Positions 1 through 18,694 of a stretch of 32,000 bases of DNA are shown one piece after another (within the stretch, counting starts at the first letter, position 1; each line of letters begins with the position of its first letter). Below the pieces are notes generated by a model. That model was not told where the DNA came from. It searched no databases and saw nothing but the letters and a program-made list of their open reading frames with translations. Source of the stretch: Methanococcus maripaludis (lineage in GTDB: Archaea; AGJL01; Methanococci; Methanococcales; Methanococcaceae); assembly GCF_002945325.1 (NCBI RefSeq), contig NZ_CP026606.1, positions 810,001 through 842,000 of the forward strand. The letters are read 5' to 3'. A program made the position numbers and the translations under genes.

Positions 1-1212
1 ATGTATTGTCTGAGACTCCATTGCTTCTAGAATATATGATAAAACACTTCTTTCAACGGTTAATTCATCAAGACATGCAGTACCGCCGTTTGCTTTTACT
101 AATACTCCTGGTTTTATGACCCAAGTACTGTCTCCAATTTCAGTTTTTTCCTGGACCACACCAGCTGTCAACCCAACTCCTGAAGCAGTTGAAATCGAGC
201 TGTAAACACAACCTGGAACTCCAGCAATGAATCTTAAAATATCACTTTTTCCAGTTCCAGGATCCGTTATTAATAAAATATGGCTGTCTGCTCGTTTTTT
301 TCCTTTTTTAACACCTCTGACCTGCTGTAAGAGAATAGATTGCTTTATTATCTCGTTTCCTTTGATTTGTGGTGCAATTCTTCCCGAAAGAATGTTTAAA
401 ACGTCTTTGTTTTTTGCGAGACTTTCAAACTGTTTAATTTCATTTTCAGTGAATGATACATCCAGTTTTTCGGTTACTGGTTCGCAATTGTATCCTCCGA
501 TTAAAATGTCATGAAGCGGGATTTTCTTATTTTTCTGGTTTTTTATTGGAATTCCCGTGACTTTGATCCGTCCGCAGTAGATTCCGGGCGTGTATTCGAG
601 TAATACACTTATGAATTTTGGAGGATCTTCGGGATCATCCATTAAATCCAACGGCTGCTGAATTTTTAGTTCCTGGTAATCTACATATTTTGATTCTTCA
701 TCCAGCAGCAACATATTTTGAGAACACTTTGGACACTGGGGCCCCATGTGCATTTCAAAAGGCCTTTCAATTGTCACTTTTTTCTTCTGGCCGCATGATG
801 CACAGACATAAACTGCTTCTTTTAGGGCCAACTTGATTTTAGTTGCCATTACAACTATTCCTTCAACTTCAACGAGTTTTCCATAATTTTCCCCCTTAAT
901 GTCCTCGATAGTCATTGGTTTTCCGTTAGAATTTCTATTCAATGATTCTGGAAGATTTTTTACAGTAACGGTGCAGTCTGCATCAGCCATTTTGTATGAA
1001 AAATAAGCATCCGCATAAGCTTCATTTAAGAGTTCCAGTGCTGAATAGGGGTTTTCTTCCAGATAATCTAAAAATTCAAAGAAACCATAATCATGAACGT
1101 TTTTTAAATCAACTACCACTCTTTTGGTTTCAGATATTATATCATCGAGGTGAACTTCCTTAAAATACGGAACTAACCTTGACATTAACTTTGATTTTAT
1201 TTTGTCATCCAA
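1..1212 (-). CDS. mcm: MCM replicative helicase, N-terminal about 404 codons (gene continues past the left window edge)
   Basis: Absent from the ORF track because it is truncated by the window. My own minus-strand translation from TTG at 1212 (G-run RBS at 1221-1228; alternative ATG at 1185) reads MDDKIKSKLMSRLVPYFKE... It contains a CxxC...CxxC zinc finger (CASCGQKK...CPKCS), Walker A ILLITDPGTGKSDILRF, Walker B-like ACLDEL, and the MCM-typical ILEAMESQTIH at the edge. The frame is open for all 1212 nt. Confidence 0.85.
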   Translation of the reverse strand, partial: MDDKIKSKLMSRLVPYFKEVHLDDIISETKRVVVDLKNVHDYGFFEFLDYLEENPYSALELLNEAYADAYFSYKMADADCTVTVKNLPESLNRNSNGKPMTIEDIKGENYGKLVEVEGIVVMATKIKLALKEAVYVCASCGQKKKVTIERPFEMHMGPQCPKCSQNMLLLDEESKYVDYQELKIQQPLDLMDDPEDPPKFISVLLEYTPGIYCGRIKVTGIPIKNQKNKKIPLHDILIGGYNCEPVTEKLDVSFTENEIKQFESLAKNKDVLNILSGRIAPQIKGNEIIKQSILLQQVRGVKKGKKRADSHILLITDPGTGKSDILRFIAGVPGCVYSSISTASGVGLTAGVVQEKTEIGDSTWVIKPGVLVKANGGTACLDELTVERSVLSYILEAMESQTIH

Positions 1213-1224
1213 ATTAAAACCCCC

Positions 1225-2869: not shown

Positions 2870-3178
2870 AAAAATATTATTAACATTTATTTTGTAAGTA
2901 CTTACGAAATCATTTTTAGTTTAAAAAAAGTTCAAGGTTTCTTTTTTCTTAACCTGTTTTCATTTATATATTAAACCTAAAATGTAATCAAAAGTCATTA
3001 TCAAAAACAGTCTTTTTTCTTTTTATTTATTTTATTTCGTATATACAGAATTATCTAATAATCTGATTTTGTATATACGAAATCGTTTAAGTAATTCTTG
3101 CAAAAATAGGATTTGGTATTATTTTTTAGCATGTTTTGTATGAATAATTTATTTTGTATATACAAAATAATTGAAAAA
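2852..3178. repeat. noncoding repeat block A (about 327 bp), near-identical to block B at a +996 bp offset
   Basis: Direct comparison: 2911-3178 versus 3907-4174 align without indels, with about 6 substitutions. Contains a TTTATATA box (2963-2970), T-runs, and palindromes of the TTTTGTATATACAAAA family at 2890-2909, 3035-3050, 3067-3082 and 3153-3168. Confidence 0.9.
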
Positions 3179-3228
3179 TTAATAAAAAAATAATCATTTG
3201 AATCAGAATGAGTTGTAATATTATTCTA

Positions 3229-3535: not shown

Positions 3536-3838
3536 TTGGGCGATAATGTGATTTTAAAAATGATTAATAAAAAGCACGTTAAAGAAATATTATATCTATT
3601 AAATAGTGTTGAGGAACTTTATTTTGCGGAAATATGTAATAATATCCCTGAAGCACACAAAGGAAGTATTAATCGGACGTTGCAGGAATTATATGATTTT
3701 AAAATGGTTTCAAAAAGGGAAGAAGGAACTGCTAAACTTTCAAAAACATTTTATTCGATTACAGATCTTGGAAAGGAATCATTAAAGTTTTACGAACTTG
3801 AAAAAGAAGTGGAAACCAAGTACAATATAACAGAATAA
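3536..3838 (+). CDS. small winged-helix (wHTH) DNA-binding protein, paralogue 2 (100 aa, TTG start)
   Basis: ORF track. Same architecture as paralogue 1 (HKGSINRTLQELYD...SKREEG...FYSITDLGKE). Confidence 0.7.
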   Translation: MGDNVILKMINKKHVKEILYLLNSVEELYFAEICNNIPEAHKGSINRTLQELYDFKMVSKREEGTAKLSKTFYSITDLGKESLKFYELEKEVETKYNITE

Positions 3839-3847
3839 TACTTTATT

Positions 3848-4205
3848 AAAAATAAACCTCTTTAAAGAAATAATACTAATAACTATTTTGTAGAGCTATA
3901 CAAAATCATTTTTAGTTTAAAAAAAGTTCAAGGTTTCTTTTTTCTTAACCTGTTTTCATTTATATATTAAACTTAAAATGTAATCAAAAGTCATTATCAA
4001 AAACAGCCTTTTTTCTTTTTATTTATTTTATTTCGCATATACAGAATTATCTAATAATCTGATTTTGTATATACAAAATCGTTTAAGTAATTCTTGCAAA
4101 AATAGGATTTAGTATTATTTTTTAGCATGTTTTGTATGAATAATTTATTTTGTATATACAGAATAATTGAAAAAAGGATTTTGTATATACTGAATTTTAA
4201 AAAAG
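3848..4205. repeat. noncoding repeat block B (about 358 bp), copy of block A plus one extra palindrome
   Basis: See block A. Palindrome-family sites at 3886-3905, 4031-4046, 4063-4078 (perfect), 4148-4163 and 4179-4194. Confidence 0.9.
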
Positions 4206-4285: not shown

Positions 4286-5947
4286 TTATTTTAATAATTT
4301 ATTTTTTAAAATATCTCTTTTAAAAAACATTAAATTTCTAAAAAGGAGCTGTTTTGCATATGGATCTTTTTCATCACAATTAATATCTGCAGGGAAATAT
4401 AAATCTGATTTTAAAAGCAATGCGTTAATATACGCTTCCAAAATCAATGTTCGAGGATCTTTTAATTCCACTAAAGAATTTTTAGCATCCATTAAATATT
4501 TCAAACCCATATGTTCTAGTCCTAATTTGGAGTAACATTCATAAACATGGCGAAGGGTCTGAATATATGCGTATAACTCACCAGAATTTCGATAATAGGA
4601 TTCTAACTTAAAATTTATGGTCAAAGCATGGCAATAATAACCAATACGGAAAAAGTACTCTGAATAATTTGGTAAAATACAGTATTCTGAATTATTGTTC
4701 ATATTTTTTGCAACAACCAATGCTTTATCCAATATTGGTTTAGCTTCAATATATCTCTTAGTTTCCAAATAGGATGTTGAAATGGTAATGTAAAACGGCA
4801 GTTGAAATGCGTATATATGTTTTAAAACTTCTTTGTCAGTATTTTGACTTTTTAACTCATTGATTAGTAGTTTAATATGATCTAAGGCACCTAAGCAGAT
4901 TTTTTCTACTTGGGTATGCTTTCCAATTTTTAGATTTTTTTGTGCATAAAATTCCAAGGCACAAAGACGTTCTATAATATTTTCAGAAAAAAGTGCTTTT
5001 AAACTGTAATTCTCACTTAAATCCCATTCACCAACATTTCTCAAAAATTGAGAAATAACATAGTTTTTAAGCCTACTTTCAACATTTTTTGACCATATTT
5101 TTATTTTGATTTTCCACTCATTATTTTTGAAACTTAAATCGGTATATCCTCCGATATTCTCGGAATATAATTCCCAAATTGTTTTTACAAATTCATTGGT
5201 ATCCATAAAAACTTCATGAAAATCATAACTCTTTAAAAATTCTTTTTTAGAAACGTCTGATTTAGAATGGTTTACAACGGCTATTTTCTTTTCTAGATTA
5301 CTACATTTTTTAAAAATTGGGTTTATGTCATAAAAATCAGAAAAACTGTAACCCATAAAAATCAAACTATCATCATTGTATAACATGTCTTCCAAGACTT
5401 TTGCACGTATTTCTAAATTATTCTGGTTTGCAACGTTTTTTATCGTGTGTTTTAATGAATCTACGTTAGAAATGCAGCCGTGAATTTTGTAAATTTTCAA
5501 AATATTTTCGTCATTTAAAGAATTTTCCAGATCTTTTTCAGTTCTATATACTTTATAATCCCTATTTTCGACCATTCCTTCATCGATCATGGCTTTTTCT
5601 ATTAGTTCATCAAAATTTGTAGTATATATGGATCCTAGAAAACCCTGTTTTGCTAATTTTGCCATTAAAACATGATTTGAATTTGGAATTCCACAGTCAT
5701 AAACTTTCAAAAGCTCAGCCGATTCATTATTTAAAAATTCCATGTAAACTTCAAACGCTATGTCTTTTTTTAGTATTCTTTCAGCATCTTCTTGATTAAC
5801 CATTTTTAATAGTATCTCTTTGATAAACTCGTTAACTGAAGGAAGGCCTGAATCATAAGAGATGCCCGAACCTACGAAAAAAGAAAGTTGGCCTTTTGAC
5901 ATACTTCTAAAATCAAATTTTTCTAAAATTTCGTTTAAGTTTTCCAT
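4286..5947 (-). CDS. SIR2-family (SIR2_2 / defence-associated sirtuin-like) N-terminal domain fused to a TPR-like helical-repeat C-terminal domain (553 aa)
   Basis: ORF track. Motifs in the order seen in ThsA-type SIR2 domains: LSFFVGSGISYDSGLPS, IYTTNFDELIEKA, KIYKIHGCIS (candidate catalytic His), LIFMGYSFSDFYD. The C-terminal about 270 aa is helical and repeat-like (e.g. EFYAQKNLKIGKH..., YIEAKPILDKALVVAKN..., YECYSKLGLEHMGLKYLMDAKN). Confidence 0.75.
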   Translation of the reverse strand: MENLNEILEKFDFRSMSKGQLSFFVGSGISYDSGLPSVNEFIKEILLKMVNQEDAERILKKDIAFEVYMEFLNNESAELLKVYDCGIPNSNHVLMAKLAKQGFLGSIYTTNFDELIEKAMIDEGMVENRDYKVYRTEKDLENSLNDENILKIYKIHGCISNVDSLKHTIKNVANQNNLEIRAKVLEDMLYNDDSLIFMGYSFSDFYDINPIFKKCSNLEKKIAVVNHSKSDVSKKEFLKSYDFHEVFMDTNEFVKTIWELYSENIGGYTDLSFKNNEWKIKIKIWSKNVESRLKNYVISQFLRNVGEWDLSENYSLKALFSENIIERLCALEFYAQKNLKIGKHTQVEKICLGALDHIKLLINELKSQNTDKEVLKHIYAFQLPFYITISTSYLETKRYIEAKPILDKALVVAKNMNNNSEYCILPNYSEYFFRIGYYCHALTINFKLESYYRNSGELYAYIQTLRHVYECYSKLGLEHMGLKYLMDAKNSLVELKDPRTLILEAYINALLLKSDLYFPADINCDEKDPYAKQLLFRNLMFFKRDILKNKLLK

Positions 5948-5953
5948 AATATC

Positions 5954-6154
5954 TTACAAAATATCCAAAATACGATTTATTCCATTAAAAAGCATATCAA
6001 TTGCACCATCAGGATCATTCGATGCTACTTTTATAAATTTTAAGGTAAATAATGATAAAAAAATCAGAGCAAACCCCATTAATATTCCCAAAATCGGGTG
6101 TAATTCTCCTTTTTTAGACCTAATCAAATTTTTAACTAAATTTAAAAGAATCAA
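5954..6154 (-). CDS. small single-pass membrane protein (66 aa, TTG start), co-operonic with the SIR2-TPR gene
   Basis: ORF track. Hydrophobic segment HPILGILMGFALIFLSLFTL. Its stop lies 6 nt before the SIR2 start codon. Preceded by the GGGGGCGAA leader and an A/T box. The overlapping plus-strand ORF 5862-6170 looks like a low-complexity antisense shadow. Confidence 0.5.
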   Translation of the reverse strand: MILLNLVKNLIRSKKGELHPILGILMGFALIFLSLFTLKFIKVASNDPDGAIDMLFNGINRILDIL

Positions 6155-6225
6155 CCTATTCGCCCCCTAAATTTCGATATAATTATATGGTTGAATTTAA
6201 AATATATTAACTAATCGATTTTGAA
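6155..6225 (-). promoter_or_regulatory. diverged fourth copy of the shared promoter/leader cassette (drives small-TM + SIR2-TPR)
   Basis: On the minus strand it shares TTCAAAATC (distal), TAATTATAT (A/T box) and GGGGGCGAA (leader) with the cassette upstream of the OLD gene, in the same order and with similar spacing. Confidence 0.45.
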
Positions 6226-6246
6226 TTTGAAAAGAAAGGGCGATAA

Positions 6247-6324
6247 ACCTTTTATGAATTAGAATCAGCTTTTGAAGAGTTAAAAGCAGATCAGAAAATA
6301 GTATACCAAATCGTTAAAGAATAA
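6247..6324 (+). pseudogene. 3' remnant of a third wHTH paralogue (…TFYELESAFEELKADQKIVYQIVKE*)
   Basis: My own translation. The frame is open only from 6247 and has no start codon. FYELE...E matches the C-terminus of paralogue 2 (KFYELEKEVE). It is followed by the same AATAATACTTT..AAAAATAAACCTCTTTAAAGAA 3' flank as paralogue 2. Confidence 0.5.
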
Positions 6325-6333
6325 TACTTTTTT

Positions 6334-6593
6334 AAAAATAAACCTCTTTAAAGAATATTACTCAAGATTATTTTATGGACGGTACATGAAACTCCCATTA
6401 ATTAAAAAAATCCATTAAGTTTATTTTTTAATCATATTTTTATTTAAATACTAAACCAGCGGTTTTTTGAAAAAAGTAATCTTATCCACTTAACTATTTA
6501 GAATATTTGGGGCCATATTAGATAATTTCGTGTACCATCTAATTTTAAAAAATCTTATTTTATGTGCCATGAAATAATTTAAAGAAATGGGTA
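6334..6593. repeat. noncoding module X2, homologous to X1
   Basis: Inverted repeat GGTACATGAAAC (6381-6392) / ATTTCGTGTACC (6525-6536), spaced 132 nt versus 131 nt in X1. See findings. Confidence 0.7.
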
Positions 6594-6700
6594 AAAAATA
6601 GGACTTAGTATTATTTTTTAGTATGTTTTGTATGAATAATTTATTTTGTATATACAGAATAATTGAACTGGGGATTTTGTATATACAGAATTTTTGAAAT
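6594..6700. repeat. partial repeat block C (3' 107 bp of block B)
   Basis: AAAAATAGGA.TTAGTATTATTTTTTAG.ATGTTTTGTATGAATAATTTATTTTGTATATACAGAATAATTGAA...GGATTTTGTATATAC.GAATTTT matches 4100-4205. Palindrome sites at 6644-6659 and 6675-6690. Confidence 0.85.
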
Positions 6701-6705
6701 AGAAC

Positions 6706-8463
6706 TTATTTAAGTTGAAAAGAATACATTTGATCGGTTATGATAATAACATCTGGTTCATCTTCCTTTTTTTTGTTCACGCGCATCTCATAAGTCTTTT
6801 TTTGGAATTCATCATATAATTTTAAGAATTTATCGTATTGTTCTGAAGTTAATTGTGTTTTTTTATGGGTTCCTGCAATATTCAAAAATTTGTTTTTTCT
6901 GATTTGATCTAACTCAAAATTTACTCCGTTATGCGGATTTGTTACGTCATTATCCCCTAATTTGTATAATTCAAGCAAATAATTTAAATTCTCTGAAAAA
7001 TTGTCTTTTTCCGAAAATAAATACTCCATTAAGAAATAAATTACACTGTTTTCAACTACCAAATGATCATTAAAATCGAAACCATCACTACCATAGAGTT
7101 CTTTAATTTTTTTAAATAACAAATAAGACGAAAAATTAAAAAAATCGTCAGTGTCGTGTATTTTATTTATAAATAAATCGTAGTTGCATTGGCTAAGTAC
7201 AAACAATACGTTAAGAAAATAATCCTTTCCGAGATCTGAATCAATAATCCCCTTTAATATCTCCTCTATTTCAACAGATAATGCTGATCCAAAAGTTGTT
7301 TCTAAAAATTTTGGAGATTTTAATGCATTTACTGCAATTAATATCATTTCTCGGTAAATGAATAGTAACCTACGTCTTTGAAATTCCTCAAAAATTTGTT
7401 TTTTGGATAAATATACTATAGTCCTATACTTATCAAGAAATTGTCTAACATCGATTCCGTCATTGATACTCCAGTTTATATCTCTTTTTTTGACAATATC
7501 ACTAATTAAGTGCATATTTTTAATTATATCACGAGTATAGTCTTCATTATGGTTGATATTTGGATTTTTTAAAAGGCCATAATAAAAAGTAGCAAAATAA
7601 CAAGGTAACTTTACATAAGTTTGTAAATCATTTGTTTTTGAGTATTCAACATATAATTTACTTTCAAAATCTTCAAATTTTTTATGAGTTTCTTCAAGTA
7701 AATATTTAAAAACCTCCTTATCTCGACTATCTGCAGTTTTTCTGAATAAAAGATCTAAATATTGTAGGGGATATTTTGAAAAATGGTTTTCATTTTTTCC
7801 AAAAAATCCCAATTTAATCTTTGAAAGATATTCTTTGGTATCTTCAAATTTAATTTCATCCAATACATTTTTTACAGTATTTTCGGGTTTCATAAACTTT
7901 ATAATTTCATCGATATAAAAAAATAAAGCAATAAAGTTAGAAACGAGCACCATTAATCCAAAGAATACTATAAAAGAACTTAATAAATTAGTTGAAGGTA
8001 GAAATGCCCCGATAATTGAACTAAACCCTAAAGATAAAATTATTAAAAATAAATAAGCTTTAAAAAAACTTTTATTCATAAATAGGTCTAAAATACGGGT
8101 TGAATAATTATTCGAAGTTGAATTTATTGTTGCAACTGAAAACGCGACAATAAATGCACCCAATATTGATATTCCCGAACTTGCTGTTTTAAAAAGATTT
8201 TCAATATTATTGCTTGAAATATCTGCAGATACAGGCAGATAAAAATAAATTAAAAATGAAATTAAGGAAGATAAACCTAAAATTTTTTTCAGTTTTGGGC
8301 ATTGTTCTTTAATATATTTGATATATGGCTTTATTTTGGGATCAATATTCTCTTTATTGCGCCAATATTTAACAATAAGAAACATTGCGATTAAAAAGAG
8401 CGAATATACTTTAAACATATCCATATAATTCACGAAAGAATTTATCAAACTTAAAAACCCCAT
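6706..8463 (-). CDS. multi-pass membrane protein (about 5 TM in the first 190 aa) with a large helical cytoplasmic C-terminal domain (585 aa); N-terminus possibly DUF2254-like
   Basis: ORF track. Hydrophobic segments by eye. The stretch ATINSTSNNYSTRILDLFMNKSFFKAYLFLIILSLGF resembles the (Q)xxxxxS(P/T)R(I/L)L motif I associate with DUF2254 membrane proteins (unverified). Preceded by promoter cassette copy 1. Confidence 0.6.
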   Translation of the reverse strand: MGFLSLINSFVNYMDMFKVYSLFLIAMFLIVKYWRNKENIDPKIKPYIKYIKEQCPKLKKILGLSSLISFLIYFYLPVSADISSNNIENLFKTASSGISILGAFIVAFSVATINSTSNNYSTRILDLFMNKSFFKAYLFLIILSLGFSSIIGAFLPSTNLLSSFIVFFGLMVLVSNFIALFFYIDEIIKFMKPENTVKNVLDEIKFEDTKEYLSKIKLGFFGKNENHFSKYPLQYLDLLFRKTADSRDKEVFKYLLEETHKKFEDFESKLYVEYSKTNDLQTYVKLPCYFATFYYGLLKNPNINHNEDYTRDIIKNMHLISDIVKKRDINWSINDGIDVRQFLDKYRTIVYLSKKQIFEEFQRRRLLFIYREMILIAVNALKSPKFLETTFGSALSVEIEEILKGIIDSDLGKDYFLNVLFVLSQCNYDLFINKIHDTDDFFNFSSYLLFKKIKELYGSDGFDFNDHLVVENSVIYFLMEYLFSEKDNFSENLNYLLELYKLGDNDVTNPHNGVNFELDQIRKNKFLNIAGTHKKTQLTSEQYDKFLKLYDEFQKKTYEMRVNKKKEDEPDVIIITDQMYSFQLK

Positions 8464-8470
8464 TCACATT

Positions 8471-8530
8471 TAAAATATAATTACATTAAAATAGCCCCAA
8501 CTTAAATATTAAATTTATGATTTTGATTAA
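8471..8530 (-). promoter_or_regulatory. shared promoter/leader cassette, copy 1
   Basis: TAAAATATAATTACATTAAAATAGCCCCAACTTAAATATTAAATTTATGATTTTGATTAAAT. About 95% identical to copy 3. Contains two A/T boxes on the minus strand (TAATTATATTTTA and TTTAATATTTA). Confidence 0.6.
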
Positions 8531-8546
8531 ATAGTGGGGTGGGAAT

Positions 8547-9491
8547 TTGCCTAGCTTTTCACAACGAAACGGCTACAAAGAGCTGAATGAAGACTTATTT
8601 TATGAATGTATGCCTGAAAGTCTTAAAACCAGAATTTGGAATTTTATTCATGAAAATTTTTTAAAATACCAGACTTCGGATTTTTTAAAAGTAGTATGTG
8701 ATGAATTTCTAAAATACGATCTTACTGATGAATGGTATATGGATAATCCGATTACAAATGTCATTAAACCAAAATACCGAAGTTTAAAATGGTTTGAAGT
8801 TTATGACCTTGTTGAATTCTGTTTTGATAATATAAAATATCTCGAAAAAGATAAAAAATTAACATATCACATCCATGAATCCTCAATATGGACACAAAAT
8901 GAAAAATGGGCTTATTATCTAAATAAAGGATTTGTTCAAAAACAAGACTCCAGGGGACTTGCTTATTTAGAATATCCGTTTGAAAAATATCTCAAAGAAA
9001 GATTAAAACGATATTCAGTTCTTTTTAATACATTAATGGAAAAAGAAAGAGCTTCCTATCGACTTATCGAAAATAACATAGTTCCGATAACAAATACGGA
9101 AGAAATAAACGAAATTAAAACTGCTTTAAACCCTCCTGAAAAATATAAATTTGTCGGAGACCACCTAAAAAAGGCTTTAGAACTTTATTCGAACAAAGAA
9201 AAGCCAGATTATGAAAATTCAATAAAAGAATCCATTAGTGCTCTTGAATCCCTAGCTAAAATTAGATTAAATAATGAAAAAGGAACTTTGGGTAGGTTAC
9301 TTCCACAATTGGGATTGCATGAAGACTTCGAACTTGGAATTAAAAAACTTTACAGCTGGACTTCTGATGATAAAGGTGGAATTAGACATGGTAAAAAAGG
9401 AGATACTGGAAGTTATGAAGCTGAAGCCCGATATATGCTTGTTACGTGTTCAACACTGTCAAATTATTTAATTTCGAAGCTTGAAAAATAA
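8547..9491 (+). CDS. AbiJ-like abortive-infection protein (AbiJ N-terminal-domain-4-like + C-terminal HEPN-like domain), 314 aa, TTG start
   Basis: ORF track. N-terminus MPSFSQRNGY...MPESLKTRIWNFIHE matches the FSxRxGY...LRNxLWN signature. The middle and C-terminus (YRLIENNIVPITNTEEINEIKTAL, HLKKALELYSNKEKPDYENSIKESISALESLAKI, LYSWTSDDKGGIRHG, ARYMLVTCSTLSNYL) match the conserved blocks I recall for this family. Confidence 0.6.
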   Translation: MPSFSQRNGYKELNEDLFYECMPESLKTRIWNFIHENFLKYQTSDFLKVVCDEFLKYDLTDEWYMDNPITNVIKPKYRSLKWFEVYDLVEFCFDNIKYLEKDKKLTYHIHESSIWTQNEKWAYYLNKGFVQKQDSRGLAYLEYPFEKYLKERLKRYSVLFNTLMEKERASYRLIENNIVPITNTEEINEIKTALNPPEKYKFVGDHLKKALELYSNKEKPDYENSIKESISALESLAKIRLNNEKGTLGRLLPQLGLHEDFELGIKKLYSWTSDDKGGIRHGKKGDTGSYEAEARYMLVTCSTLSNYLISKLEK

Positions 9492-9494
9492 ATT

Positions 9495-10175
9495 TTAAAC
9501 TATTATTTCTTTTTTATAATAATTATGATAACAAAAAAATGCAGAAACCGCAATTCCGGAAAAGTGAACCATTCCTCCTCCACAATTTGATACTGAAAAA
9601 TCGATCAGAAAAGTTAGAACTGAAAAAAACAATGCAAACATAAAGCTTGACCAAAATCCATTACTTTTTGAAAACTTAGTCTTATTAAATACAAAATTAC
9701 CCATAAAATAATAAGAAATATACATAAATCCATAAACAACTCCTGAAATACCTATTCCGGAATAATTTATCGGTTTTTCATTAATAATCCAGTATGCAGT
9801 GAATGAGATTAATGGAATCAGCCATATGGACATTAATAAAAATAAATATGTTTTAAGATTTAGTTTATATTCTACAATATATCCAAAAATAATCAAATAC
9901 AGCATGTTATATTTTAAATGATCCATATCACGGTGTAAAAAGATTGATGTTATGATTTGCCAGGGTTTTTGAAATAATTCTGAAGGAAAAAAGGCATAAT
10001 TTCTGTAAAACTCGGAATTTTTAATCCACAGGTCTGCACTGTTGTAGTACTGAAGTTCGGGATTTATTTTGATAAAAAATACTGCCATGCAAATAAAAAA
10101 TAATAACATGGTAAAATAAGGGATTTTTAAAAAAAATTTATATTTTTCAAATATGTGCATGGAAAGAACCCCCAT
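9495..10175 (-). CDS. rhomboid-family intramembrane serine protease (226 aa)
   Basis: ORF track. WQIITSIFLHRDMDHLKYNMLYLIIFGYIVE (WxxxT..F.H....H...NM), GISGVVYGF (GxSG catalytic Ser) and VHFSGIAVSAF (catalytic His helix). About 6 hydrophobic helices. Its ATG overlaps the stop of the upstream gene (TAATG at 10173-10177). Confidence 0.85.
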   Translation of the reverse strand: MGVLSMHIFEKYKFFLKIPYFTMLLFFICMAVFFIKINPELQYYNSADLWIKNSEFYRNYAFFPSELFQKPWQIITSIFLHRDMDHLKYNMLYLIIFGYIVEYKLNLKTYLFLLMSIWLIPLISFTAYWIINEKPINYSGIGISGVVYGFMYISYYFMGNFVFNKTKFSKSNGFWSSFMFALFFSVLTFLIDFSVSNCGGGMVHFSGIAVSAFFCYHNYYKKEIIV

Positions 10176-11320
10176 TAAATAAATTGAAGATCTTCAAATT
10201 CTTCTTTTATTTTTTCAGCATATTGCTCTATTTCAGTAAATTCCAATGATAAACTTCCCAATATTGCTTTTTCTTCGTCATAATACCTACCTGCATGTAT
10301 AATTGTCATAAAATATTCTTCAGAATAATCTTCTCCATTAATGTCTTCGTATTTTATGGTTAATTTATACCACGGGTCATTTATTGGATAACTTATGGCC
10401 GATTCTGTGATAATTACTCCCTCATATATCCTTAAAATTTCGTCAGGTAGTGGAATTATTAGATATTTTTTATCATAGGGTGGCAAAACCTCATAATTAC
10501 GCCTAATTTTGGTTTGAACTGATGAACTACTTAAATATCCATTAATATCCGATTCTACCCGTAAATAACCAGAATTATTATCTCCTGGGGTATATTCTAC
10601 GTTTAAATCATTTTTAACTTTAATGCGGTCTGTAGCAGTGTTATAATTTACATCAAATATTAATTTAATATTTTTTGAAAATCCCGTCCCCAGATTATAA
10701 ATTTCGAAATAAGGAATCCGTATATTTCCGCAGATTAAATTATCAGAACTCAGACTAAGTTTATTTTCTCGTTTTTTCCACGTTAACTCATATTTCTTAT
10801 CAGTATTGCCCGGCACACACCTTATTTCAAAATAATTATTTAATGGGGCTAATTTTGGGCGTTGTTGTAATTTTCTCTGTCGTTCCATTTCTTTTCTCTG
10901 ATTAATTGTTTCATAAACCAGATACGCAGTTAGTGTAACCACCCCAATTCCAGAAAACCAGTCAGCAATACTCCCCCAGTACCCCAAATTTAAAAATTGA
11001 GATCCGAAAACGGCCCAAATGAACAATAATGCTCCGGAAGACATTATTAATTGTCCAGCTTCCTTTTGGAAATTTTTTAAGTATTCATTTTGAAACATAA
11101 AATAAATAACAATCCCAAGCATTAACCAAAGTAAATAAAATACCTTTGTGAAGCCATCCAATCCATTCATCCAGGGCATTGATTCAAAGTATGCAAACAA
11201 TACACATATAATAAAAATTAAGAAAAATACGATTAAAACGTAAATTCCGAAAATATCTATTTTTTTGAGTTTTTCGTATAATGACTTAAGTTTAAATTTT
11301 AAATTAGATTTTTTGTCCAA
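10175..11320 (-). CDS. membrane protein: 4 N-terminal TM helices + about 240-aa beta-rich soluble C-terminal domain of unknown family (381 aa, TTG start)
   Basis: ORF track. Hydrophobic segments at about aa 22-45, 57-76, 91-109 and 121-137. Then a basic linker (QRKEMERQRKLQQRPK) and a domain rich in short alternating strands. Preceded by promoter cassette copy 2. Confidence 0.65.
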   Translation of the reverse strand: MDKKSNLKFKLKSLYEKLKKIDIFGIYVLIVFFLIFIICVLFAYFESMPWMNGLDGFTKVFYLLWLMLGIVIYFMFQNEYLKNFQKEAGQLIMSSGALLFIWAVFGSQFLNLGYWGSIADWFSGIGVVTLTAYLVYETINQRKEMERQRKLQQRPKLAPLNNYFEIRCVPGNTDKKYELTWKKRENKLSLSSDNLICGNIRIPYFEIYNLGTGFSKNIKLIFDVNYNTATDRIKVKNDLNVEYTPGDNNSGYLRVESDINGYLSSSSVQTKIRRNYEVLPPYDKKYLIIPLPDEILRIYEGVIITESAISYPINDPWYKLTIKYEDINGEDYSEEYFMTIIHAGRYYDEEKAILGSLSLEFTEIEQYAEKIKEEFEDLQFI

Positions 11321-11337
11321 TAATATCCCGTCCCCTT

Positions 11338-11390
11338 TAAAATATAATTACATTAAAATAGACTCAACATAAATATTAAAGTTATTATTC
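11338..11390 (-). promoter_or_regulatory. shared promoter/leader cassette, copy 2
   Basis: TAAAATATAATTACATTAAAATAGACTCAACATAAATATTAAAGTTATTATTC. About 4 mismatches in 53 bp versus copy 3. Confidence 0.6.
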
Positions 11391-11437
11391 AAAAAATTTA
11401 AAAAAGATAGTAAATACTGATAAATTAAAAATTAACT

Positions 11438-13261
11438 TTATATGTCTAATTTATTGTGTAATTCCTGAATAAAGTTATTATAAACTTCGTATTTTTCCAA
11501 TATTTTCTTTTTGTCATTAATTTCTTTTAGATCTTCAATAACTAGTTCATTTATTTTTTTCTTGTATTCATTAAAATCGTCTGTTGAACCGGATTTCTTC
11601 TCTGTTTTAAACCGTTTTGCATATTCTAAAACTGGCATATCTACAGGTGTTTTAAACCCATCACCCCATATCTCGGATCCGGCATTATCTAAAATATCGG
11701 TTGGAAATAAATCTTCAGTAGTTGCAACATTCTTTTTTAATTTAACTAAATCCAAAATTTCAAAAATATTGTCCATAAATTCGGGATTTTGTTCCTTAAC
11801 ATCTTCAATAACCCGTCTTCCGGCAGTATCTGAATCTAACACTACAAAACCTGGAACTATATCTGTATTAAAAAATTTAACCCATTTTAATACTTCAGGA
11901 GTCCCTCCTGCATCAGTACATCTAACCTCGTTAATAATTTTTTGGTCAAATACCTGTTTTACAAAGGTTTCATAGAGTTTTCTGTCATTGGGGCCCTCAA
12001 ATACAAGGATATTATTGCCCAATATATTTTTTAAAGAAGTTCCTAAGGCTCGGTATATTACTTCTTCTTTTATTGGGAAATTCACGTCGATTTCTTCAAT
12101 AATTGTATTTCCATTTTTTTTAGATACAATAAGGTGATTTTTTAAATCTTTTTTAACCATAAATATGGAATGGGTTGATAAAAATACCACGTTATTTTTG
12201 GAAATATTCAAAAGTTCGTCTCTTAAGTATTCGACGCCACTAGGGTGCAAATGTACTTCCGGTTCATCAATTATTATTACGTTATTTTTCAATGATTCAA
12301 TTTTATTTTGTACTGAAAGATTCAGTAAAATCGACATAAACTGCTTAAAACCATCACTTCTTTCAGTCATTTCCATTTTTCTATATGGTGTGTCTTCATC
12401 ATATGTCAAAACAGTACAGGTCGTACTTTCCAATCTAACTTTTATTTTGATTTTATGTTCAGGCCATAATTGTTGTATGTGTGCCGTAGCTACATCTGAT
12501 AATTTGGATTCATAATTATCCCGAGCACTTTCCTTATTCATTATTTGATCCAATATGGAATTCATATTTTTTTCGTAGCCTGCTAAATAAAAGATATTTT
12601 TCAAAGGTACAGATATATTCGGGTTTTGTTTAAAATTAACCAAATTTATTGGTTGGCCTATCAAATATTTTTCAGAAGATTCCCAAAATATAAATTTAGG
12701 TATTGCTTTTTTTAAATCTTCTAAAACGGCATTTTGAACCAGTTGACTTATTTTTTCTTTTGATATGGATATATAATTTGGAGAATTTTCTGCGGGAACA
12801 TCATTTTTGTTTATTATGTGATTATTACTAGTTGGATTAATCCTATAATCCGATAAATCAGGATACGTAGTCAATAAATTATATGTTACAGCCGTTTCAG
12901 AATTATCCGGCTTTTTTACCAATATTACATTTACCCCAGATATTGAAATAGCACTTGCTAAATTTTTTGGAATAATAGAACTAATTTTAGTTAAAATATT
13001 GATACGATCATCGGAATTAAGCCAAAACTTATAGGTAAACATTATATTTTCATTGTTTTCCTGTGCTTCCATGTTACAATCTTTTACATAATTCAAAGTC
13101 TTTGGTTTATCAAAAACTGAAATCGATTTAAGAATATTACTTTTTCCTGAACCATTTACTCCAAAAAACATTGTATATTTATTATCCGATGTAGGAATTC
13201 TAATTATTTGATCTTTTATGCTTCTAAAATTCTTAATATGTATTTCTTTCAATTCTAACAA
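11438..13261 (-). CDS. OLD-family nuclease (ABC-type ATPase + C-terminal TOPRIM), 607 aa, TTG start
   Basis: ORF track. IKNFRSIK...FFGVNGSGKSNILKSI (Walker A), SDGFKQ (signature-like), VIIIDEPEVHLHPSG (Walker B/D-loop), FLSTHS (H-loop). TOPRIM: NILVFEGPNDRKLYE (Glu) and FVVLDSDTAGRR (DxD). Confidence 0.85.
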   Translation of the reverse strand: MLELKEIHIKNFRSIKDQIIRIPTSDNKYTMFFGVNGSGKSNILKSISVFDKPKTLNYVKDCNMEAQENNENIMFTYKFWLNSDDRINILTKISSIIPKNLASAISISGVNVILVKKPDNSETAVTYNLLTTYPDLSDYRINPTSNNHIINKNDVPAENSPNYISISKEKISQLVQNAVLEDLKKAIPKFIFWESSEKYLIGQPINLVNFKQNPNISVPLKNIFYLAGYEKNMNSILDQIMNKESARDNYESKLSDVATAHIQQLWPEHKIKIKVRLESTTCTVLTYDEDTPYRKMEMTERSDGFKQFMSILLNLSVQNKIESLKNNVIIIDEPEVHLHPSGVEYLRDELLNISKNNVVFLSTHSIFMVKKDLKNHLIVSKKNGNTIIEEIDVNFPIKEEVIYRALGTSLKNILGNNILVFEGPNDRKLYETFVKQVFDQKIINEVRCTDAGGTPEVLKWVKFFNTDIVPGFVVLDSDTAGRRVIEDVKEQNPEFMDNIFEILDLVKLKKNVATTEDLFPTDILDNAGSEIWGDGFKTPVDMPVLEYAKRFKTEKKSGSTDDFNEYKKKINELVIEDLKEINDKKKILEKYEVYNNFIQELHNKLDI

Positions 13262-13284
13262 TGTTTCGCCCCCAATTAAAATCT

Positions 13285-13345
13285 TAAAATATAATTACAT
13301 TAAAATAGACCCAACATAAATATTAAATTTATGATTTTGAATTAA
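13285..13345 (-). promoter_or_regulatory. shared promoter/leader cassette, copy 3
   Basis: TAAAATATAATTACATTAAAATAGACCCAACATAAATATTAAATTTATGATTTTGAATTAAAC, followed on the minus strand by the GGGGGCGAA leader and TTG at 13261. Confidence 0.6.
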
Positions 13346-13366
13346 ACCAAATTAAAAAAAGAATAG

Positions 13367-13744
13367 TTAAAACATTTTATTTTTAATAACATAGTAAAAA
13401 TCAAGCTCATTTACATAATAAACATGATTTCCTCTTTTAATTTCAAATAAAACTAAACTTTCAGGAATTTTACGAGCTTCTAAAATCTGAAGAATTTTAT
13501 AACTATCATCAGCTAAATCAAAACTTCCAGGAACTATTTCCTGAGCTGATACTTTCAAACACTTTTTAATTAAAATCCCGTCAAAACCGGATGATACGTC
13601 AAAGCTTAAATTGGAGTGAATTTTTCCAGATTCAAAAACCCCTAAATCTTCAAAATGTGAAACCGAGTCTATCGCAGAAATTAACTGACTTCTCAAAATA
13701 TCGTTTAAACTTATGTGTCTCTCTTGATCCAACATGAACCTCAC
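13367..13744 (-). CDS. hypothetical protein (125 aa)
   Basis: ORF track only. No motif recognised. Confidence 0.45.
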   Translation of the reverse strand: MRFMLDQERHISLNDILRSQLISAIDSVSHFEDLGVFESGKIHSNLSFDVSSGFDGILIKKCLKVSAQEIVPGSFDLADDSYKILQILEARKIPESLVLFEIKRGNHVYYVNELDFYYVIKNKMF

Positions 13745-15119: not shown

Positions 15120-15407
15120 TTATTCAAAACTTTCCAAAATCAAATTTATTAGATATATCTTGTCATGATGATCGAAATCAATAATTATTATAGTATTTCC
15201 GTCTATTTTATAAGTTAAAACAAATGATTTATCGATATGGACTCTTCGAATTCCTTTCATATCGTTTCTAAGTGGTTTATAATGGTTAGGGTTTTCCATT
15301 ATTTCTTTAATCTTTTTATTTATGATTTCAAGCTGTTTTTTATTTTTCTTCTGAAGTTTTTTAAATGCCTTATAAGCGTCTTCTGAAATCTCAATATTAT
15401 AAGTCAT
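15120..15407 (-). CDS. relE: RelE/ParE-superfamily type II toxin (95 aa)
   Basis: ORF track. Size and the pattern ...KQLEIINKKIKEIMENPNHYKPLRNDMKGIRRVHIDKSFVLTYKIDGNTIIIIDFDHHDKIY are typical of RelE-like toxins. 11-nt overlap with the upstream antitoxin gene. Confidence 0.75.
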   Translation of the reverse strand: MTYNIEISEDAYKAFKKLQKKNKKQLEIINKKIKEIMENPNHYKPLRNDMKGIRRVHIDKSFVLTYKIDGNTIIIIDFDHHDKIYLINLILESFE

Positions 15408-15627
15408 TTAATCCAAACTCCTCTGAAAAGTTGTTTACTTTTATAAATTTACCTTTGCAGATTCTTTCAATCTTTTCGATATATTCCTGCCTTAGTTCGG
15501 GCTCTTCTTCAACTATTGAACGCATGAAAAACTCAACCTGTTTACTCATGCTCATTCCACGATCTTTACAGTGTTTTGAAAATTTTGAATATACTTCTTC
15601 ATCAACATTGAATGATTTTACAGCCAT
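15397..15627 (-). CDS. ribbon-helix-helix (CopG/RelB-like) antitoxin (76 aa)
   Basis: ORF track. The N-terminal KSFNVDEEVYSKFSKHCKDRGMSMSKQVEFFMRSIV fits beta-strand + two helices. Overlaps the toxin gene. Confidence 0.65.
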   Translation of the reverse strand: MAVKSFNVDEEVYSKFSKHCKDRGMSMSKQVEFFMRSIVEEEPELRQEYIEKIERICKGKFIKVNNFSEEFGLNDL

Positions 15628-15738: not shown

Positions 15739-16455
15739 TTATTTCTCTTTTAATTCATAAAATACCTGTTTTCCATCCTTTTTCCTAATGATTGCACTAC
15801 TTTTTTCCAGGCGTTTTAATGTATCATATAATGCTTTTGTACCGCCTTTAAAATTCTTTACAAGGTCTTTTGGTTGTGATCGGCCATTCTTTAAGATAGA
15901 TAATACTTGTTCATTATCTGTTTCTCGTTTAATTGTTTTTTTATACCGTTCTGTATTAATATACTTTTCAATTCCGTTAAATTTACTTTCCATTAATTTA
16001 ATTTTTTCAGAACTCTTTTTATCGTTTTCATTTATTTTGGCATTTATTTTTTCGGTCCAAGTTTTCATAACGTTCCAGTTATTATTTATTTTTTCTAAAT
16101 CATTAATTCTGTTTTCTAATTCCTTAATTTTCAATTCCCTTTCTTCTTTGGTTTTATTTTCCTGTTCGATATATTTCAATATCTTTTCTAATGTTGCATC
16201 ATGTTCCAGGATTTTTTCTGTATTGTTATTTGTATTTTCCAAGTATTCTGGGAGCCCTTCTTCTAGTTCTTTAAAGGTTTTAGAATGCCCTTTTACTTCT
16301 TTACTAATTCCATCAACTTTATTATTAAGTTTGCCTAACTCTAACGTTATTTTATCATTATCTAGTGTATTTTTCCCACTTTCATTATTATTTTCAATTG
16401 TTTTACGTATTTTATCTAAAATAATCCTCACCCTTAAATTAAATTTATTATTCAC
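15739..16455 (-). CDS. coiled-coil protein with C-terminal wHTH-like domain (238 aa)
   Basis: ORF track. Long Asn/Lys/Glu-rich heptad region. C-terminus LSILKNGRSQPKDLVKNFKGGTKALYDTLKRLEKSSAIIRKKDGKQVFYELKEK looks like a MarR/ArsR-type winged helix. The antisense ORF 15788-16462 is low complexity and judged spurious. Confidence 0.55.
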   Translation of the reverse strand: MNNKFNLRVRIILDKIRKTIENNNESGKNTLDNDKITLELGKLNNKVDGISKEVKGHSKTFKELEEGLPEYLENTNNNTEKILEHDATLEKILKYIEQENKTKEERELKIKELENRINDLEKINNNWNVMKTWTEKINAKINENDKKSSEKIKLMESKFNGIEKYINTERYKKTIKRETDNEQVLSILKNGRSQPKDLVKNFKGGTKALYDTLKRLEKSSAIIRKKDGKQVFYELKEK

Positions 16456-18360: not shown

Positions 18361-18694
18361 TTAAAACCCCTCACGTAGTTATTGATAGTAATATACTACA
18401 TGAAAGGTTTTTTATTTGAAATATAAATAATTTGTCGGTTAAATCGTGTATAAGTCTGTAAAAACCGTTTTTAAATTCTTAAAAATAGACTTGATATATC
18501 GGACTCAGGATTTTTGAAAATCGATATATCGGACTAGTGAAAAACCATCAAAATCGGTGCCATTGGTAAAAATCCGATATAGTTTGAGGAACTTTTTCGG
18601 GTCCTTTAGATGTAAAATACTGCAAAAAAGCTAAATCTTGTTAAAAACCCACGGTCTTGAAAGAAACCAAAAAAGAGTGCGTTATTTCAAAAAG

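What the first reader, a model, noticed from the sequence alone, without database searches (positions are those of the whole stretch)
6155..13345. One about 55-60 bp promoter/leader cassette reused in front of three (four with a diverged copy) unrelated defence-type transcription units
THE COPIES
- Near-identical copies lie at 8471-8530 (585-aa membrane protein), 11338-11390 (4-TM protein + rhomboid) and 13285-13345 (OLD nuclease).
- The core is TAAAATATAATTACATTAAAATAG(A/C)C(C/T)CAAC(A/T)TAAATATTAAA(T/G)TTAT(G/T)ATT, with about 92-95% pairwise identity by eye.
- A diverged copy lies at 6155-6225 (small TM + SIR2-TPR). It keeps TTCAAAATC, TAATTATAT and the GGGGGCGAA leader.

CONTEXT
- The downstream genes share no similarity with one another.
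- The distance from cassette to start codon varies (8, 18 and 24 nt).
- Three of the four units start with TTG.
- Conservation extends about 35 bp beyond the A/T boxes, more than basal promoter function needs.

POSSIBLE MEANINGS
- (a) A common regulator co-induces all the units as one regulon.
- (b) The cassette is a homology handle for recombinational shuffling of defence genes.
Basis: seen in the sequence. Interest (0 to 1): 0.75.

Follow-up and report, generated by a model that had tools for sequence, protein, structure and literature searches.

The report
Reused promoter module in archaeal defence island
A roughly 60-bp promoter and leader module sits in front of several different defence-type gene units in a variable island of Methanococcus maripaludis JJ, and across strains it is almost the only sequence kept while the genes behind it are swapped, so it probably acts as both a standard expression plug and a recombination junction.

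Summary
Three copies (8470-8531, 11337-11393, 13284-13345, minus strand) are 92-96% identical. They head DUF2254, 4TM+rhomboid and OLD. A fourth, diverged copy (6149-6242) heads small-TM+SIR2.

The window is M. maripaludis JJ. The island is the cargo region of an integrated element carrying MCM, with a tyrosine integrase seen beside it in other strains. Eight cargo configurations were found in other strains and metagenome contigs. The backbone stays 94-99% identical and the cargo is unalignable. The only homology inside the cargo is three short regulatory modules:
- type B, the "diverged copy", itself conserved before other genes;
- type C, a 128-nt palindrome module beside wHTH genes.

The cassette is 96% identical between JJ and C5, while the DUF2254 proteins behind it are 51% identical. 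JJ copy c3 looks chimeric.

Geometry fits an ordinary archaeal BRE/TATA promoter with a roughly 30-40-nt leader, probably bidirectional. No RNA structure, Rfam match or transposon features were found.

Best reading: a standard promoter/leader of the cargo slots that also serves as a short homology patch for gene swapping. The nearest analogue is the PeSL cassettes of T4-type phages. Promoter activity, any common regulator and recombination are inferred, not shown.

The parts
13284..13345 (-). Cassette copy c3 (type A). Its 5' part matches the 'after-122-aa-gene' variant and its middle and 3' part match the 'DUF2254' variant. It is followed by leader 13262-13283 (GATTTTAATTGGGGGCGAAACA) and the TTG start of OLD.
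11438..13261 (-). OLD-family ATPase/TOPRIM nuclease gene (607 aa). It has no homologue above 40% identity in the protein collection.
11337..11393 (-). Cassette copy c2 (type A; 5' end degenerate). Leader 11321-11336 (AGGGGACGGGATATTA) runs to the TTG start. Oligo-T runs lie upstream at 11391-11396, 11400-11405 and 11427-11431 (read on the minus strand).
9495..11320 (-). Operon of a 4-TM protein (10175-11320, 381 aa) and a rhomboid protease (9495-10175). The 4-TM protein is a 29-40% identical allele of the gene that follows the cassette in L031, L032 and L053.
8547..9491 (+). AbiJ / PDC-S32 gene, transcribed divergently from cassette c1.
8470..8531 (-). Cassette copy c1 (type A). It fills most of the 83-bp divergent intergenic region between AbiJ (+) and DUF2254 (-).
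6706..8463 (-). DUF2254 membrane protein gene. It is 51-58% identical to the alleles behind the same cassette in C5, L053 and L054, and is mosaic, with a 90-96% DNA segment at about 8020-8200.
6149..6242 (-). Cassette c0 (type B: same skeleton, different filler). It runs into the TTG start of the small-TM gene.
4286..6154 (-). Only the SIR2 domain was confirmed here.
6573..6699 (+). Type C module (two TTTTGTATATAC palindromes). It marks the distal boundary of cargo slot 1. Further copies lie at 4076-4201 and 3080-3202.
13367..13735 (-). Backbone 122-aa gene (AVB76298.1), the proximal boundary of the variable cargo. A T7 run at 13354-13360 lies between its stop codon and c3.
1..1224 (-). N-terminal part of the element's MCM helicase gene (runs off the window). 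In other strains DUF2540 and a tyrosine integrase follow it.

Best explanation
WHAT IT IS
The cassette is the standard promoter and 5'-leader module of the cargo slots of an integrated M. maripaludis element. In other strains that element carries MCM, DUF2540 and a tyrosine integrase.

INFERRED ANATOMY
- Box A (AAATTTAATATTT) is a BRE/TATA about 60 nt before the start codon.
- Transcription towards the cargo would start near the ATGT at the edge of Box B (about 8481-8484, 11348-11351 and 13295-13298).
- That gives a 20-40-nt leader ending in a G-run Shine-Dalgarno and, usually, a TTG start.
- Box B (TGTAATTATAT), about 30 bp away, probably serves as the TATA for the opposite direction, as needed at c1 (AbiJ) and at type B sites.

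WHY IT IS REPEATED
The module belongs to the conserved backbone, and cargo is exchanged between strains. The 60-80-bp modules act as the short homology patches where crossovers join new genes to the slot. JJ gained the OLD unit by such an event, which duplicated the module (c3/c2). A side effect is that all units start from near-identical promoters and are likely co-expressed.

SHOWN: the repeat, its positions, its restriction to the cargo region in the sequence examined, the identity cliffs and the mixed variants.
INFERRED: promoter activity, TSS positions, bidirectionality and recombination at the module.
For: CONTEXT
- The window is M. maripaludis JJ.
- Eight cargo configurations lie between the same 122-aa gene and the same wHTH/MCM side.
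- The backbone is 94-98% identical.
- Inside the cargo, JJ matches other strains mainly at type A (62-81 bp), type B (67 bp) and type C/wHTH-flank patches; the other matches are divergent alleles of the same genes (DUF2254 at 75-85% to L021 and L053, small-TM at 82% to L033).

DISTRIBUTION
- nhmmer finds type A only before cargo genes.
- Type A heads OLD, four alleles of the 4TM family and four alleles of DUF2254. Its divergent partners are AbiJ, a 220-aa gene and a 112-aa gene.
- Type B heads small-TM+SIR2, small-TM+193 aa and DUF2971. Its divergent partners are a U49 peptidase and 252-aa+FRG.

IDENTITY CLIFFS
- JJ versus C5: the cassette is 96-100% identical, the DUF2254 N-terminal DNA 43-65%, and the proteins 51%.

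VARIANT PATTERN
- c2 and c3 share derived substitutions.
- c3 has the after-122-type 5' end, the DUF2254-type middle, and a type-B-like GGGGGCGAA leader.

PROMOTER GEOMETRY
- It matches housekeeping promoters in the window, which have AAATTTATAAAT-type boxes 50-60 nt before the start and G-rich SD.
- In strain S2, 54% of operons have 20-60-nt 5'UTRs (PMC6705878).

OTHER
- The blocks TTCAAAATC, TTAATAT and TAATTATAT are kept across A, A' and B.
- JJ is naturally competent (PMC10133366), which gives a route for exchange.
Against: - There are no TSS or expression data for these genes (searches found none).
- Only three or four informative sites support the chimera reading.
- The upstream extension of c2/c3 homology is borderline (p about 0.05).
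- No donor carrying cassette plus OLD was found. The only other M. maripaludis OLD lies elsewhere without the cassette.
- Recombination on about 60 bp has not been shown in Methanococcus.
- The JJ genome outside the window could not be scanned.
- The public scans used an exact core that known variants (L031, L032) already fail to match.
Confidence: 0.65

Rival explanations
1. Regulon operator. The module is kept because an element-encoded regulator, such as one of the PadR/HxlR-like wHTH proteins, binds it and switches all cargo units together. This would resemble the consensus early-gene regulatory sequence of SIRV2 bound by Aca8. It can coexist with the best explanation.
For: - Blocks are invariant across otherwise diverged subtypes, especially T(G/A)TAATTATAT in all 11 variants.
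- Box B with its flanks is an imperfect palindrome (16 of 22 positions, read from the sequence).
- wHTH genes border every cargo region.
- There is a precedent in archaeal viruses (PMC11065993).
Against: - The clear palindromic operators (TTTTGTATATACAAAA) belong to a different module, type C, which lies beside the wHTH genes, not in the cassette.
- The invariant blocks are also what two TATA boxes would require.
- Full-length identity is explained by backbone-level divergence.
- No binding or expression data exist.
Confidence: 0.3
2. Ordinary promoters with no special role. The copies are recent local duplicates or backbone remnants. Cargo turnover happens by illegitimate recombination or other means, and junctions near the modules are coincidental.
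For: - Cassette divergence is about the same as backbone divergence.
- TTTAATATTT-type TATA boxes, G-run SDs and TTG starts are generic in this organism.
- Two of the three JJ copies are at ancestral positions.
Against: - Identity boundaries fall repeatedly at the same module edges in independent strain pairs and on both sides.
- Mixed variants occur within a copy.
- Alleles only 29-58% identical sit behind a module that is more than 90% identical in strains with a 94-98% identical backbone. This requires replacement with a breakpoint at or in the module.
Confidence: 0.2
3. Site-specific recombination site. The modules would be integron-attC-like targets of the element's tyrosine recombinase, which captures gene cassettes.
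For: - The element encodes one or two tyrosine recombinases.
- Direct repeats bracket single cargo units, c3/c2 around OLD.
Against: - There is no hairpin or inverted-repeat structure (z-scores -1.2 to +1).
- The modules sit at the 5' ends and look like promoters.
- Boundaries are ragged (the c2 5' end is degenerate).
- The integrase lies beyond MCM, not next to the array.
- Mosaic identity inside DUF2254 points to homologous exchange.
Confidence: 0.05
4. A small mobile repeat (MITE-like) or a structured cis-regulatory RNA.
For: The copies are short, repeated and intergenic.
Against: - No terminal inverted repeats or target duplications are visible in the alignment.
- There is no Rfam match.
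- Folding is no better than shuffles.
- Orientation is always towards a start codon, with 6-22 nt between module and start.
- It is absent outside the cargo region in the loci examined.
Confidence: 0.02

Closest known systems
PeSL (promoter-early stem-loop) regulatory cassettes of T4-type phages (Arbiol et al. 2010, PMC2839356; Comeau et al. 2014, PMC4122927)
   Same: Both are short conserved promoter-containing motifs repeated in the hyperplastic part of a mobile genome. They flank non-essential, variable genes. Insertions, deletions and replacements between close relatives are bounded by the motifs, and recombination between motifs is the proposed shuffling mechanism.
   Different: This case has an archaeal BRE/TATA rather than a sigma-70 promoter. 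No stem-loop terminator is present; there are only oligo-T runs upstream of c2 and c3. The host is an integrated archaeal element, not a lytic phage. Mini-circles have not been looked for. The cargo is defence-type genes.
Consensus early-gene regulatory sequences of archaeal viruses (SIRV2 and relatives; PMC11065993)
   Same: Both involve a long conserved sequence around a near-identical BRE/TATA in front of many unrelated small-family genes within one archaeal mobile genome, with a wHTH protein encoded nearby.
   Different: There the genes are anti-defence genes and the motif is tied to an Aca8 repressor and to early timing. Here the genes are defence-type, no regulator link is shown, and the nearby wHTH genes carry a different palindromic module.
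[quoted passage not shown]
   Same: Elements with near-identical core genes carry completely different defence cargo at a fixed position. Turnover is rapid and chimeras form.
   Different: Those hotspots are bounded by conserved core genes, and the exchange mechanism is left open. Here short intergenic promoter modules inside the hotspot are the shared sequence, and the host is an archaeon.
Integron gene-cassette arrays
   Same: Both are tandem units each bracketed by a repeated short site, within an element that encodes a tyrosine recombinase.
   Different: Integron cassettes are promoterless, with a structured attC at the 3' end and a single Pc promoter. Here each unit has its own promoter-like 5' module without secondary structure.

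Membership tests
Archaeal BRE/TATA promoter with SD-led 5'UTR | An A/T-rich TATA box with an A-rich BRE on its upstream side, placed so that the TSS falls about 24-27 bp downstream | tested here: met
   Box A, AAATTTAATATTT, lies about 60 nt before the starts. The same geometry and box type occur before PurL and the 120-aa, 122-aa and 125-aa genes in the window. This is a sequence-level test only.
Archaeal BRE/TATA promoter with SD-led 5'UTR | Experimentally mapped transcription start within or next to the element | not testable with these tools
   No TSS data exist for JJ. The published dRNA-seq is for an S2 derivative (PMC6705878). The JJ transcriptome paper does not mention these genes.
PeSL-type mobile regulatory cassette | A short conserved promoter motif repeated within the variable region of closely related mobile genomes | tested here: met
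PeSL-type mobile regulatory cassette | Indels and replacements between close relatives are bounded by the motif | tested here: met
   The modules are the main shared patches in otherwise largely unalignable cargo. Cliffs are seen at the module edges.
PeSL-type mobile regulatory cassette | Stem-loop terminator as part of the cassette | tested here: not met
   No stable hairpin was found. The terminator scan finds nothing at the cassettes. Only oligo-T runs lie upstream of c2 and c3.
PeSL-type mobile regulatory cassette | Circular excision products from recombination between neighbouring cassettes | not testable with these tools
   This needs outward-facing PCR or long reads on JJ DNA.
Integron attC-type recombination site | Imperfect inverted repeats folding into a bulged hairpin at the 3' end of promoterless cassettes | tested here: not met
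   Fold z-scores run from -1.2 to +1. The position is 5' of the genes and the sequence is promoter-like.
MITE or other transposable repeat | Terminal inverted repeats and target-site duplications, with scattered insertion sites | tested here: not met
   The alignment shows no TIR or TSD. All copies lie before start codons in the cargo region.
Structured cis-regulatory RNA | An Rfam match or a significantly stable or covarying structure | tested here: not met
   The Rfam gathering scan finds only a tRNA in the window. Folding is no better than shuffles.
Virus-type early regulon (Aca-controlled consensus regulatory sequence) | The same long motif before several unrelated genes of one mobile genome | tested here: met
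Virus-type early regulon (Aca-controlled consensus regulatory sequence) | A regulator gene that itself carries the motif and binds it | tested here: inconclusive
   The wHTH genes (2567-2869, 3536-3838) are associated with the type C palindrome module, not with the cassette. Binding cannot be tested here.
MGE defence hotspot | Different cargo at a fixed site between conserved core genes of closely related elements, enriched in defence genes | tested here: met
   Eight configurations were found. The cargo includes OLD, SIR2, AbiJ/PDC-S32, a helicase-type restriction subunit (HSDR_N/ResIII) with an adjacent N6-methyltransferase carrying a specificity domain, and a U49 peptidase. Antiviral activity was not tested.

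The most novel reading that the evidence does not exclude
M. maripaludis MCM-type integrated elements may carry a plug-and-play cargo platform. Any gene joined at a 60-bp bidirectional promoter/leader module (types A and B at the proximal side, type C at the distal side) is both expressed and made exchangeable. Units would move between strains by natural transformation and short-patch homologous recombination, possibly through excised circles. This would be an archaeal counterpart of PeSL shuffling that assembles defence repertoires.
Probability: 0.35. Interest if true: 0.7.

Novelty: new variant of a known kind. Interest (0 to 1): 0.55.

Why it matters
How defence hotspots in mobile elements swap their contents so quickly is an open question. 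The 2026 study of P2/P4 hotspots leaves the mechanism unresolved (PMC13586616).

This case offers a concrete answer that can be tested. Short conserved promoter modules inside the hotspot are the only shared sequence, and they show signs of crossovers.

The host strain, M. maripaludis JJ, is genetically tractable and naturally competent. Promoter activity, co-regulation, excision and 60-bp-guided cargo capture can therefore all be tested directly.

The result would also give a rule for finding new archaeal defence genes, namely genes that sit behind these modules. It would also supply a compact native expression cassette for methanogen engineering.

Tried and rejected
PUBLIC SCANS FOR THE TYPE A CORE
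- The exact pattern TTACATTAAAATAGNCNCAAC was scanned in species-representative genomes, IMG/VR and JGI metagenomes. All hits were chance matches with unrelated flanks.
- The pattern later proved too strict. The L031 and L032 variants differ at two specified positions. Absence of the exact core is therefore solid, but absence of variants is not.

LOOSER SCANS OF IMG/VR
- Skeleton scans gave only chance hits in AT-rich viral contigs.

OTHER SEARCHES THAT FOUND NOTHING
- blastn of 6000-13600 against PLSDB plasmids gave no match.
- A search for relatives of the element's 198-aa protein in IMG/VR found none.

LEADS THAT DID NOT HELP
- OLD homologues: the nearest is 40% identical. The other M. maripaludis OLD lies at a different locus behind an unrelated generic promoter, so no donor was identified.
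- The sigma-70 promoter scan is irrelevant for an archaeon and was at background level.
- RNA-structure and Rfam readings were rejected.
- The supplement of the JJ transcriptome paper does not list these locus tags, and its text mentions neither TSSs nor defence.
- Extension of c2/c3 homology into the terminator-like tail is only borderline (p about 0.05) and is not relied on.

Full report

Yes. The repeat finder reports one family of three direct copies at 8470-8531, 11337-11398 and 13284-13345 (D8). Pairwise identities by blastn-short are:
- c1/c3: 96.5% over 57 nt
- c2/c3: 95.9% over 49 nt
- c1/c2: 92% over 50 nt

The invariant 24-mer occurs three times even with three mismatches allowed, against zero in 100 shuffles.

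All copies lie on the minus strand immediately upstream of ORFs. Pfam and PADLOC identify these as:
- DUF2254 membrane protein (6706-8463)
- an unannotated 4-TM protein plus Rhomboid (9495-11320)
- an OLD-type ATPase/TOPRIM protein (11438-13261)
- for the diverged copy, a 66-aa TM protein plus SIR2 (4286-6154)

AbiJ/PDC-S32 (8547-9491, plus strand) is transcribed divergently from c1. The JJ downstream proteins share no detectable similarity.

**2. Where the window comes from, and the context**

The 122-aa protein next to c3 is AVB76298.1 of Methanococcus maripaludis JJ. The left end of the window encodes an MCM helicase. A tRNA-Leu lies at 18694-18779.

Loci were fetched around variants of the 122-aa protein and around DUF2254 homologues. 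They show one element architecture in many strains, in this order:
- a 64-aa gene (minus strand), a 136-aa gene and the 122-aa gene
- the variable cargo
- a 128-nt palindrome module with wHTH genes
- DUF2080, a 198-aa gene, MCM, DUF2540 and a tyrosine integrase

MCM-carrying integrated elements of M. maripaludis are known in general (PMC6972569). I did not establish that this one belongs to the pT26-2 family.

Eight cargo configurations were seen:

| Source | Cargo, from the 122-aa gene towards the wHTH side |
|---|---|
| JJ | [A] OLD, [A] 4TM+rhomboid, AbiJ (reverse), [A] DUF2254, [C], truncated 105-aa gene, [B] small-TM+SIR2, [C], wHTH, [C], wHTH |
| C5 type | 220-aa gene (reverse), [A] DUF2254, [C] |
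| L053/L054 | [A] 416-aa 4TM-family gene, 112-aa gene (reverse), [A] DUF2254, [C] |
| L031 | [A] 466-aa 4TM-family gene, [B] DUF2971, [C] |
| L032/L034 | [A] 421-aa 4TM-family gene + DUF6414, then a reverse operon driven from [C] |
| L033/L061 | FRG and 252-aa genes (reverse), [B] small-TM + 193-aa gene, 287-aa gene (reverse), [C] |
| L039/L040 | U49 peptidase (reverse), [B] DUF2971, [C] |
| L015, L035-L038 | [A'] restriction helicase (HSDR_N/ResIII) + N6-methyltransferase, [C] |

**3. Three module types**

An nhmmer profile finds it only before cargo genes.
It is a family of its own, about 90% conserved between strains. It stands before different genes and has start codons on both sides.
- **A'** is a third variant, found before the restriction-modification genes.
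- **Type C** is a 128-nt palindrome module next to the wHTH genes (section 9).

All eleven A, A' and B variants share Box B, T(G/A)TAATTATAT. Types A and B also share TTCAAAATC, six bases, then (T/G)TTAATAT (Box A); both blocks are absent from A', whose Box A region reads ATTTAAAATTTAATTCG. Box A and Box B are separated by 18-22 bases (alignment A2; pattern test).

**4. The cliff**

The backbone next to c3 is 94-98% identical between JJ and the other strains. Across the cargo, JJ matches the others mainly at:
- type A patches of 62-81 bp
- type B patches of 67 bp
- type C and wHTH-flank patches

The remaining matches are divergent alleles of the same genes: DUF2254 at 75-85% DNA identity to L021 and L053, and the small-TM gene at 82% to L033.

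Between JJ and C5 the cassette is 96-100% identical. Identity then falls to 43-65% in the first 250 nt of DUF2254. The proteins are 51% identical overall. On the other side the divergent partner genes are unrelated (AbiJ versus a 220-aa protein).

The 4TM-family proteins behind type A are 29-59% identical between strains, while the cassette stays at or above 77% over the 57-nt core and at or above 90% from Box A to Box B. With a backbone this similar, such alleles must have been replaced rather than diverged in place. The retained module marks where the replaced segment begins.

**5. Signs of exchange within the module**

At the few variable sites, copies at the DUF2254 position (JJ c1, C5, L053b) carry C-TATTTTAATG and TATATTTTAA. 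Copies at the after-122-aa position (L031, L032, L053a) carry T-TAATTTAATG.

- JJ c3 sits at the after-122-aa position and has that type's 5' end (TAATTCAAAATCATAAA). Its middle is the DUF2254 type. Its leader (AATTGGGGGCGAAAC) resembles the type B leader.
- c2 and c3 flank OLD. They share two derived substitutions and differ by one base in the 40 bp from Box A to Box B.

This is what a crossover inside the module would leave if it inserted the OLD unit and duplicated the module. The number of informative sites is small, so this is supportive and not conclusive. A possible further extension of c2/c3 homology into the T-rich tail after the preceding stop codon is borderline (p about 0.05).

**6. 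What the module does (inferred)**

- Box A with its A-rich upstream side resembles the BRE/TATA boxes of housekeeping genes in the same window. It lies at the same distance, 50-60 nt before the start.
- The standard archaeal TATA-to-TSS distance is established knowledge. It places the start at the ATGT bordering Box B and gives 20-40-nt leaders with a G-run SD 6-10 nt before a TTG start.
- This fits the 20-60-nt 5'UTR class reported for 54% of operons in an S2 derivative (PMC6705878).
- Genes start on both sides of c1 and of type B, and the two boxes are one TATA-to-TSS distance apart. I therefore read the module as two crossed divergent promoters, with moderate confidence.
- The alternative is that Box B drives the cargo as near-leaderless mRNA. 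That fits poorly with TTG starts and conserved SD-like G-runs.
- Oligo-T runs precede c2 and c3. These are typical archaeal termination signals, so the unit resembles terminator plus promoter.

**7. What it is not**

- There is no Rfam family.
- Folding is no better than shuffles.
- No terminal inverted repeats or target duplications are present.
- No copy lies outside the cargo in roughly 330 kb of partly redundant M. maripaludis loci.
- The exact type A core is absent from 185,579 species-representative genomes, IMG/VR and JGI metagenomes. The caveat is that the pattern misses known variants.

The refutation condition "generic promoter of housekeeping genes" is therefore not met as far as could be tested.

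**8. Comparison with what is known**

- **PeSL cassettes of T4-type phages** are the closest analogue. They are small promoter-containing motifs in hyperplastic regions that mediate modular shuffling (PMC2839356; PMC4122927). The stem-loop and sigma-70 features are not met here, so this works like a PeSL but is not one.
- **Consensus regulatory sequences before early anti-defence genes of archaeal viruses**, controlled by a wHTH protein (PMC11065993), are the model for the regulon reading. That reading remains untested here.
- **P2/P4 defence hotspots** (PMC9122126; PMC13586616) share the rapid swapping but leave the exchange mechanism open.
- JJ is naturally competent (PMC10133366), which offers a route for exchange.

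**9. Other structure in the island**

Type C modules stand at the distal end of the cargo in every strain, next to wHTH genes. Each carries two TTTTGTATATAC palindromes.

JJ has three of them, a roughly 996-bp duplication containing wHTH genes (D1), and a truncated 105-aa gene at 6250-6324 abutting the type B module. The JJ island therefore looks like three cargo slots joined end to end. This again points to recombination at regulatory modules.

**10. Verdict**

- The handle interpretation is supported by comparative evidence.
- The regulon interpretation is open.
- Promoter activity and recombination are inferred.

I rate it a new variant of a known kind (regulatory cassettes as shuffling points in mobile-element hotspots), first seen here in an archaeal integrated element. 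Interest is moderate.

Noticed in passing
3080-3202, 4076-4201, 6573-6699 (palindrome cores GTATATAC at 3039, 3071, 3156, 4067, 4152, 4183, 6648, 6679): A 128-nt 'type C' module carries two TTTTGTATATAC(A/G)AAA palindromes. It is present in every strain at the distal end of the cargo, next to wHTH genes. In L032 and L033 it directly precedes cargo genes read in the opposite direction. It is probably an operator/promoter for the element's wHTH regulators. All three JJ copies face the 3' end of a gene or an empty slot.
   Followed up: partly
2851-3150 versus 3847-4146 (94% identical); wHTH genes 2567-2869 and 3536-3838: A unit of about 996 bp holding a PadR/HxlR-like wHTH gene and its downstream flank is tandemly duplicated. 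The flanks are far more alike than the two wHTH proteins.
   Followed up: partly
6706-8463, especially about 8020-8200: The DUF2254 gene is mosaic relative to the C5 allele. A 90-96% identical DNA segment covering the membrane region lies inside a gene that is otherwise 40-65% identical. This suggests recombination breakpoints within the gene as well.
   Followed up: partly
6225-6324: The 3' remnant of a 105-aa TFIIE-alpha-like/wHTH gene (6250-6324) lies here. It matches L039 13433-13851 at 92% together with its flank. It abuts the type B module. An orphan leader, AAAGGGCGATAA, is followed by ATG AAT TAG on the plus strand, which is the trace of a lost divergent gene.
   Followed up: partly
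16417-16454: The promoter region of the backbone 238-aa gene (15739-16455) shares TGAATAATAAATTTAAT with the degenerate 5' end of c2 (71% over 38 nt). Weak nhmmer hits occur at the same gene in other strains. Several element promoters may belong to one loose family.
   Followed up: no
8424-8463: The start codon of DUF2254 is ambiguous. The longest ORF starts at ATG 8463 with no SD. An in-frame TTG at 8448 follows a GGGG run. The 572-aa NCBI protein implies a start at ATG 8424. In C5 a TTG start lies one codon upstream of the conserved Ser-Leu.
   Followed up: partly
18694-18779; 1-1224: A tRNA-Leu (anticodon TAA) and the MCM gene bracket most of the variable region. The tRNA may be the attachment site of the integrated element, whose integrase end lies beyond the left edge of the window.
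   Followed up: no
15120-15407 (with the upstream 76-aa ORF 15397-15627): The 95-aa ORF at 15120-15407 and the overlapping upstream 76-aa ORF match, by size and order, a 76-aa/95-aa pair in related loci whose 95-aa member hits ParE_toxin. This suggests a toxin-antitoxin pair; the window ORFs themselves were not scanned. The stretch between the tRNA and the 64-aa gene also varies between strains (Asp/Glu racemase, flavodoxin, APH, Na/Ca exchanger, SecB-like) but carries no type A or B module.
   Followed up: no
L020 (DRR680972 contig, ends inside c3); L005 (ends just past c2): Short-read assemblies that carry JJ-identical proteins at this locus break at or next to the cassette copies. This is expected for a 60-bp repeat longer than the assembly k-mer. 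It is not evidence of rearrangement, but it means draft genomes may under-report these modules.
   Followed up: no
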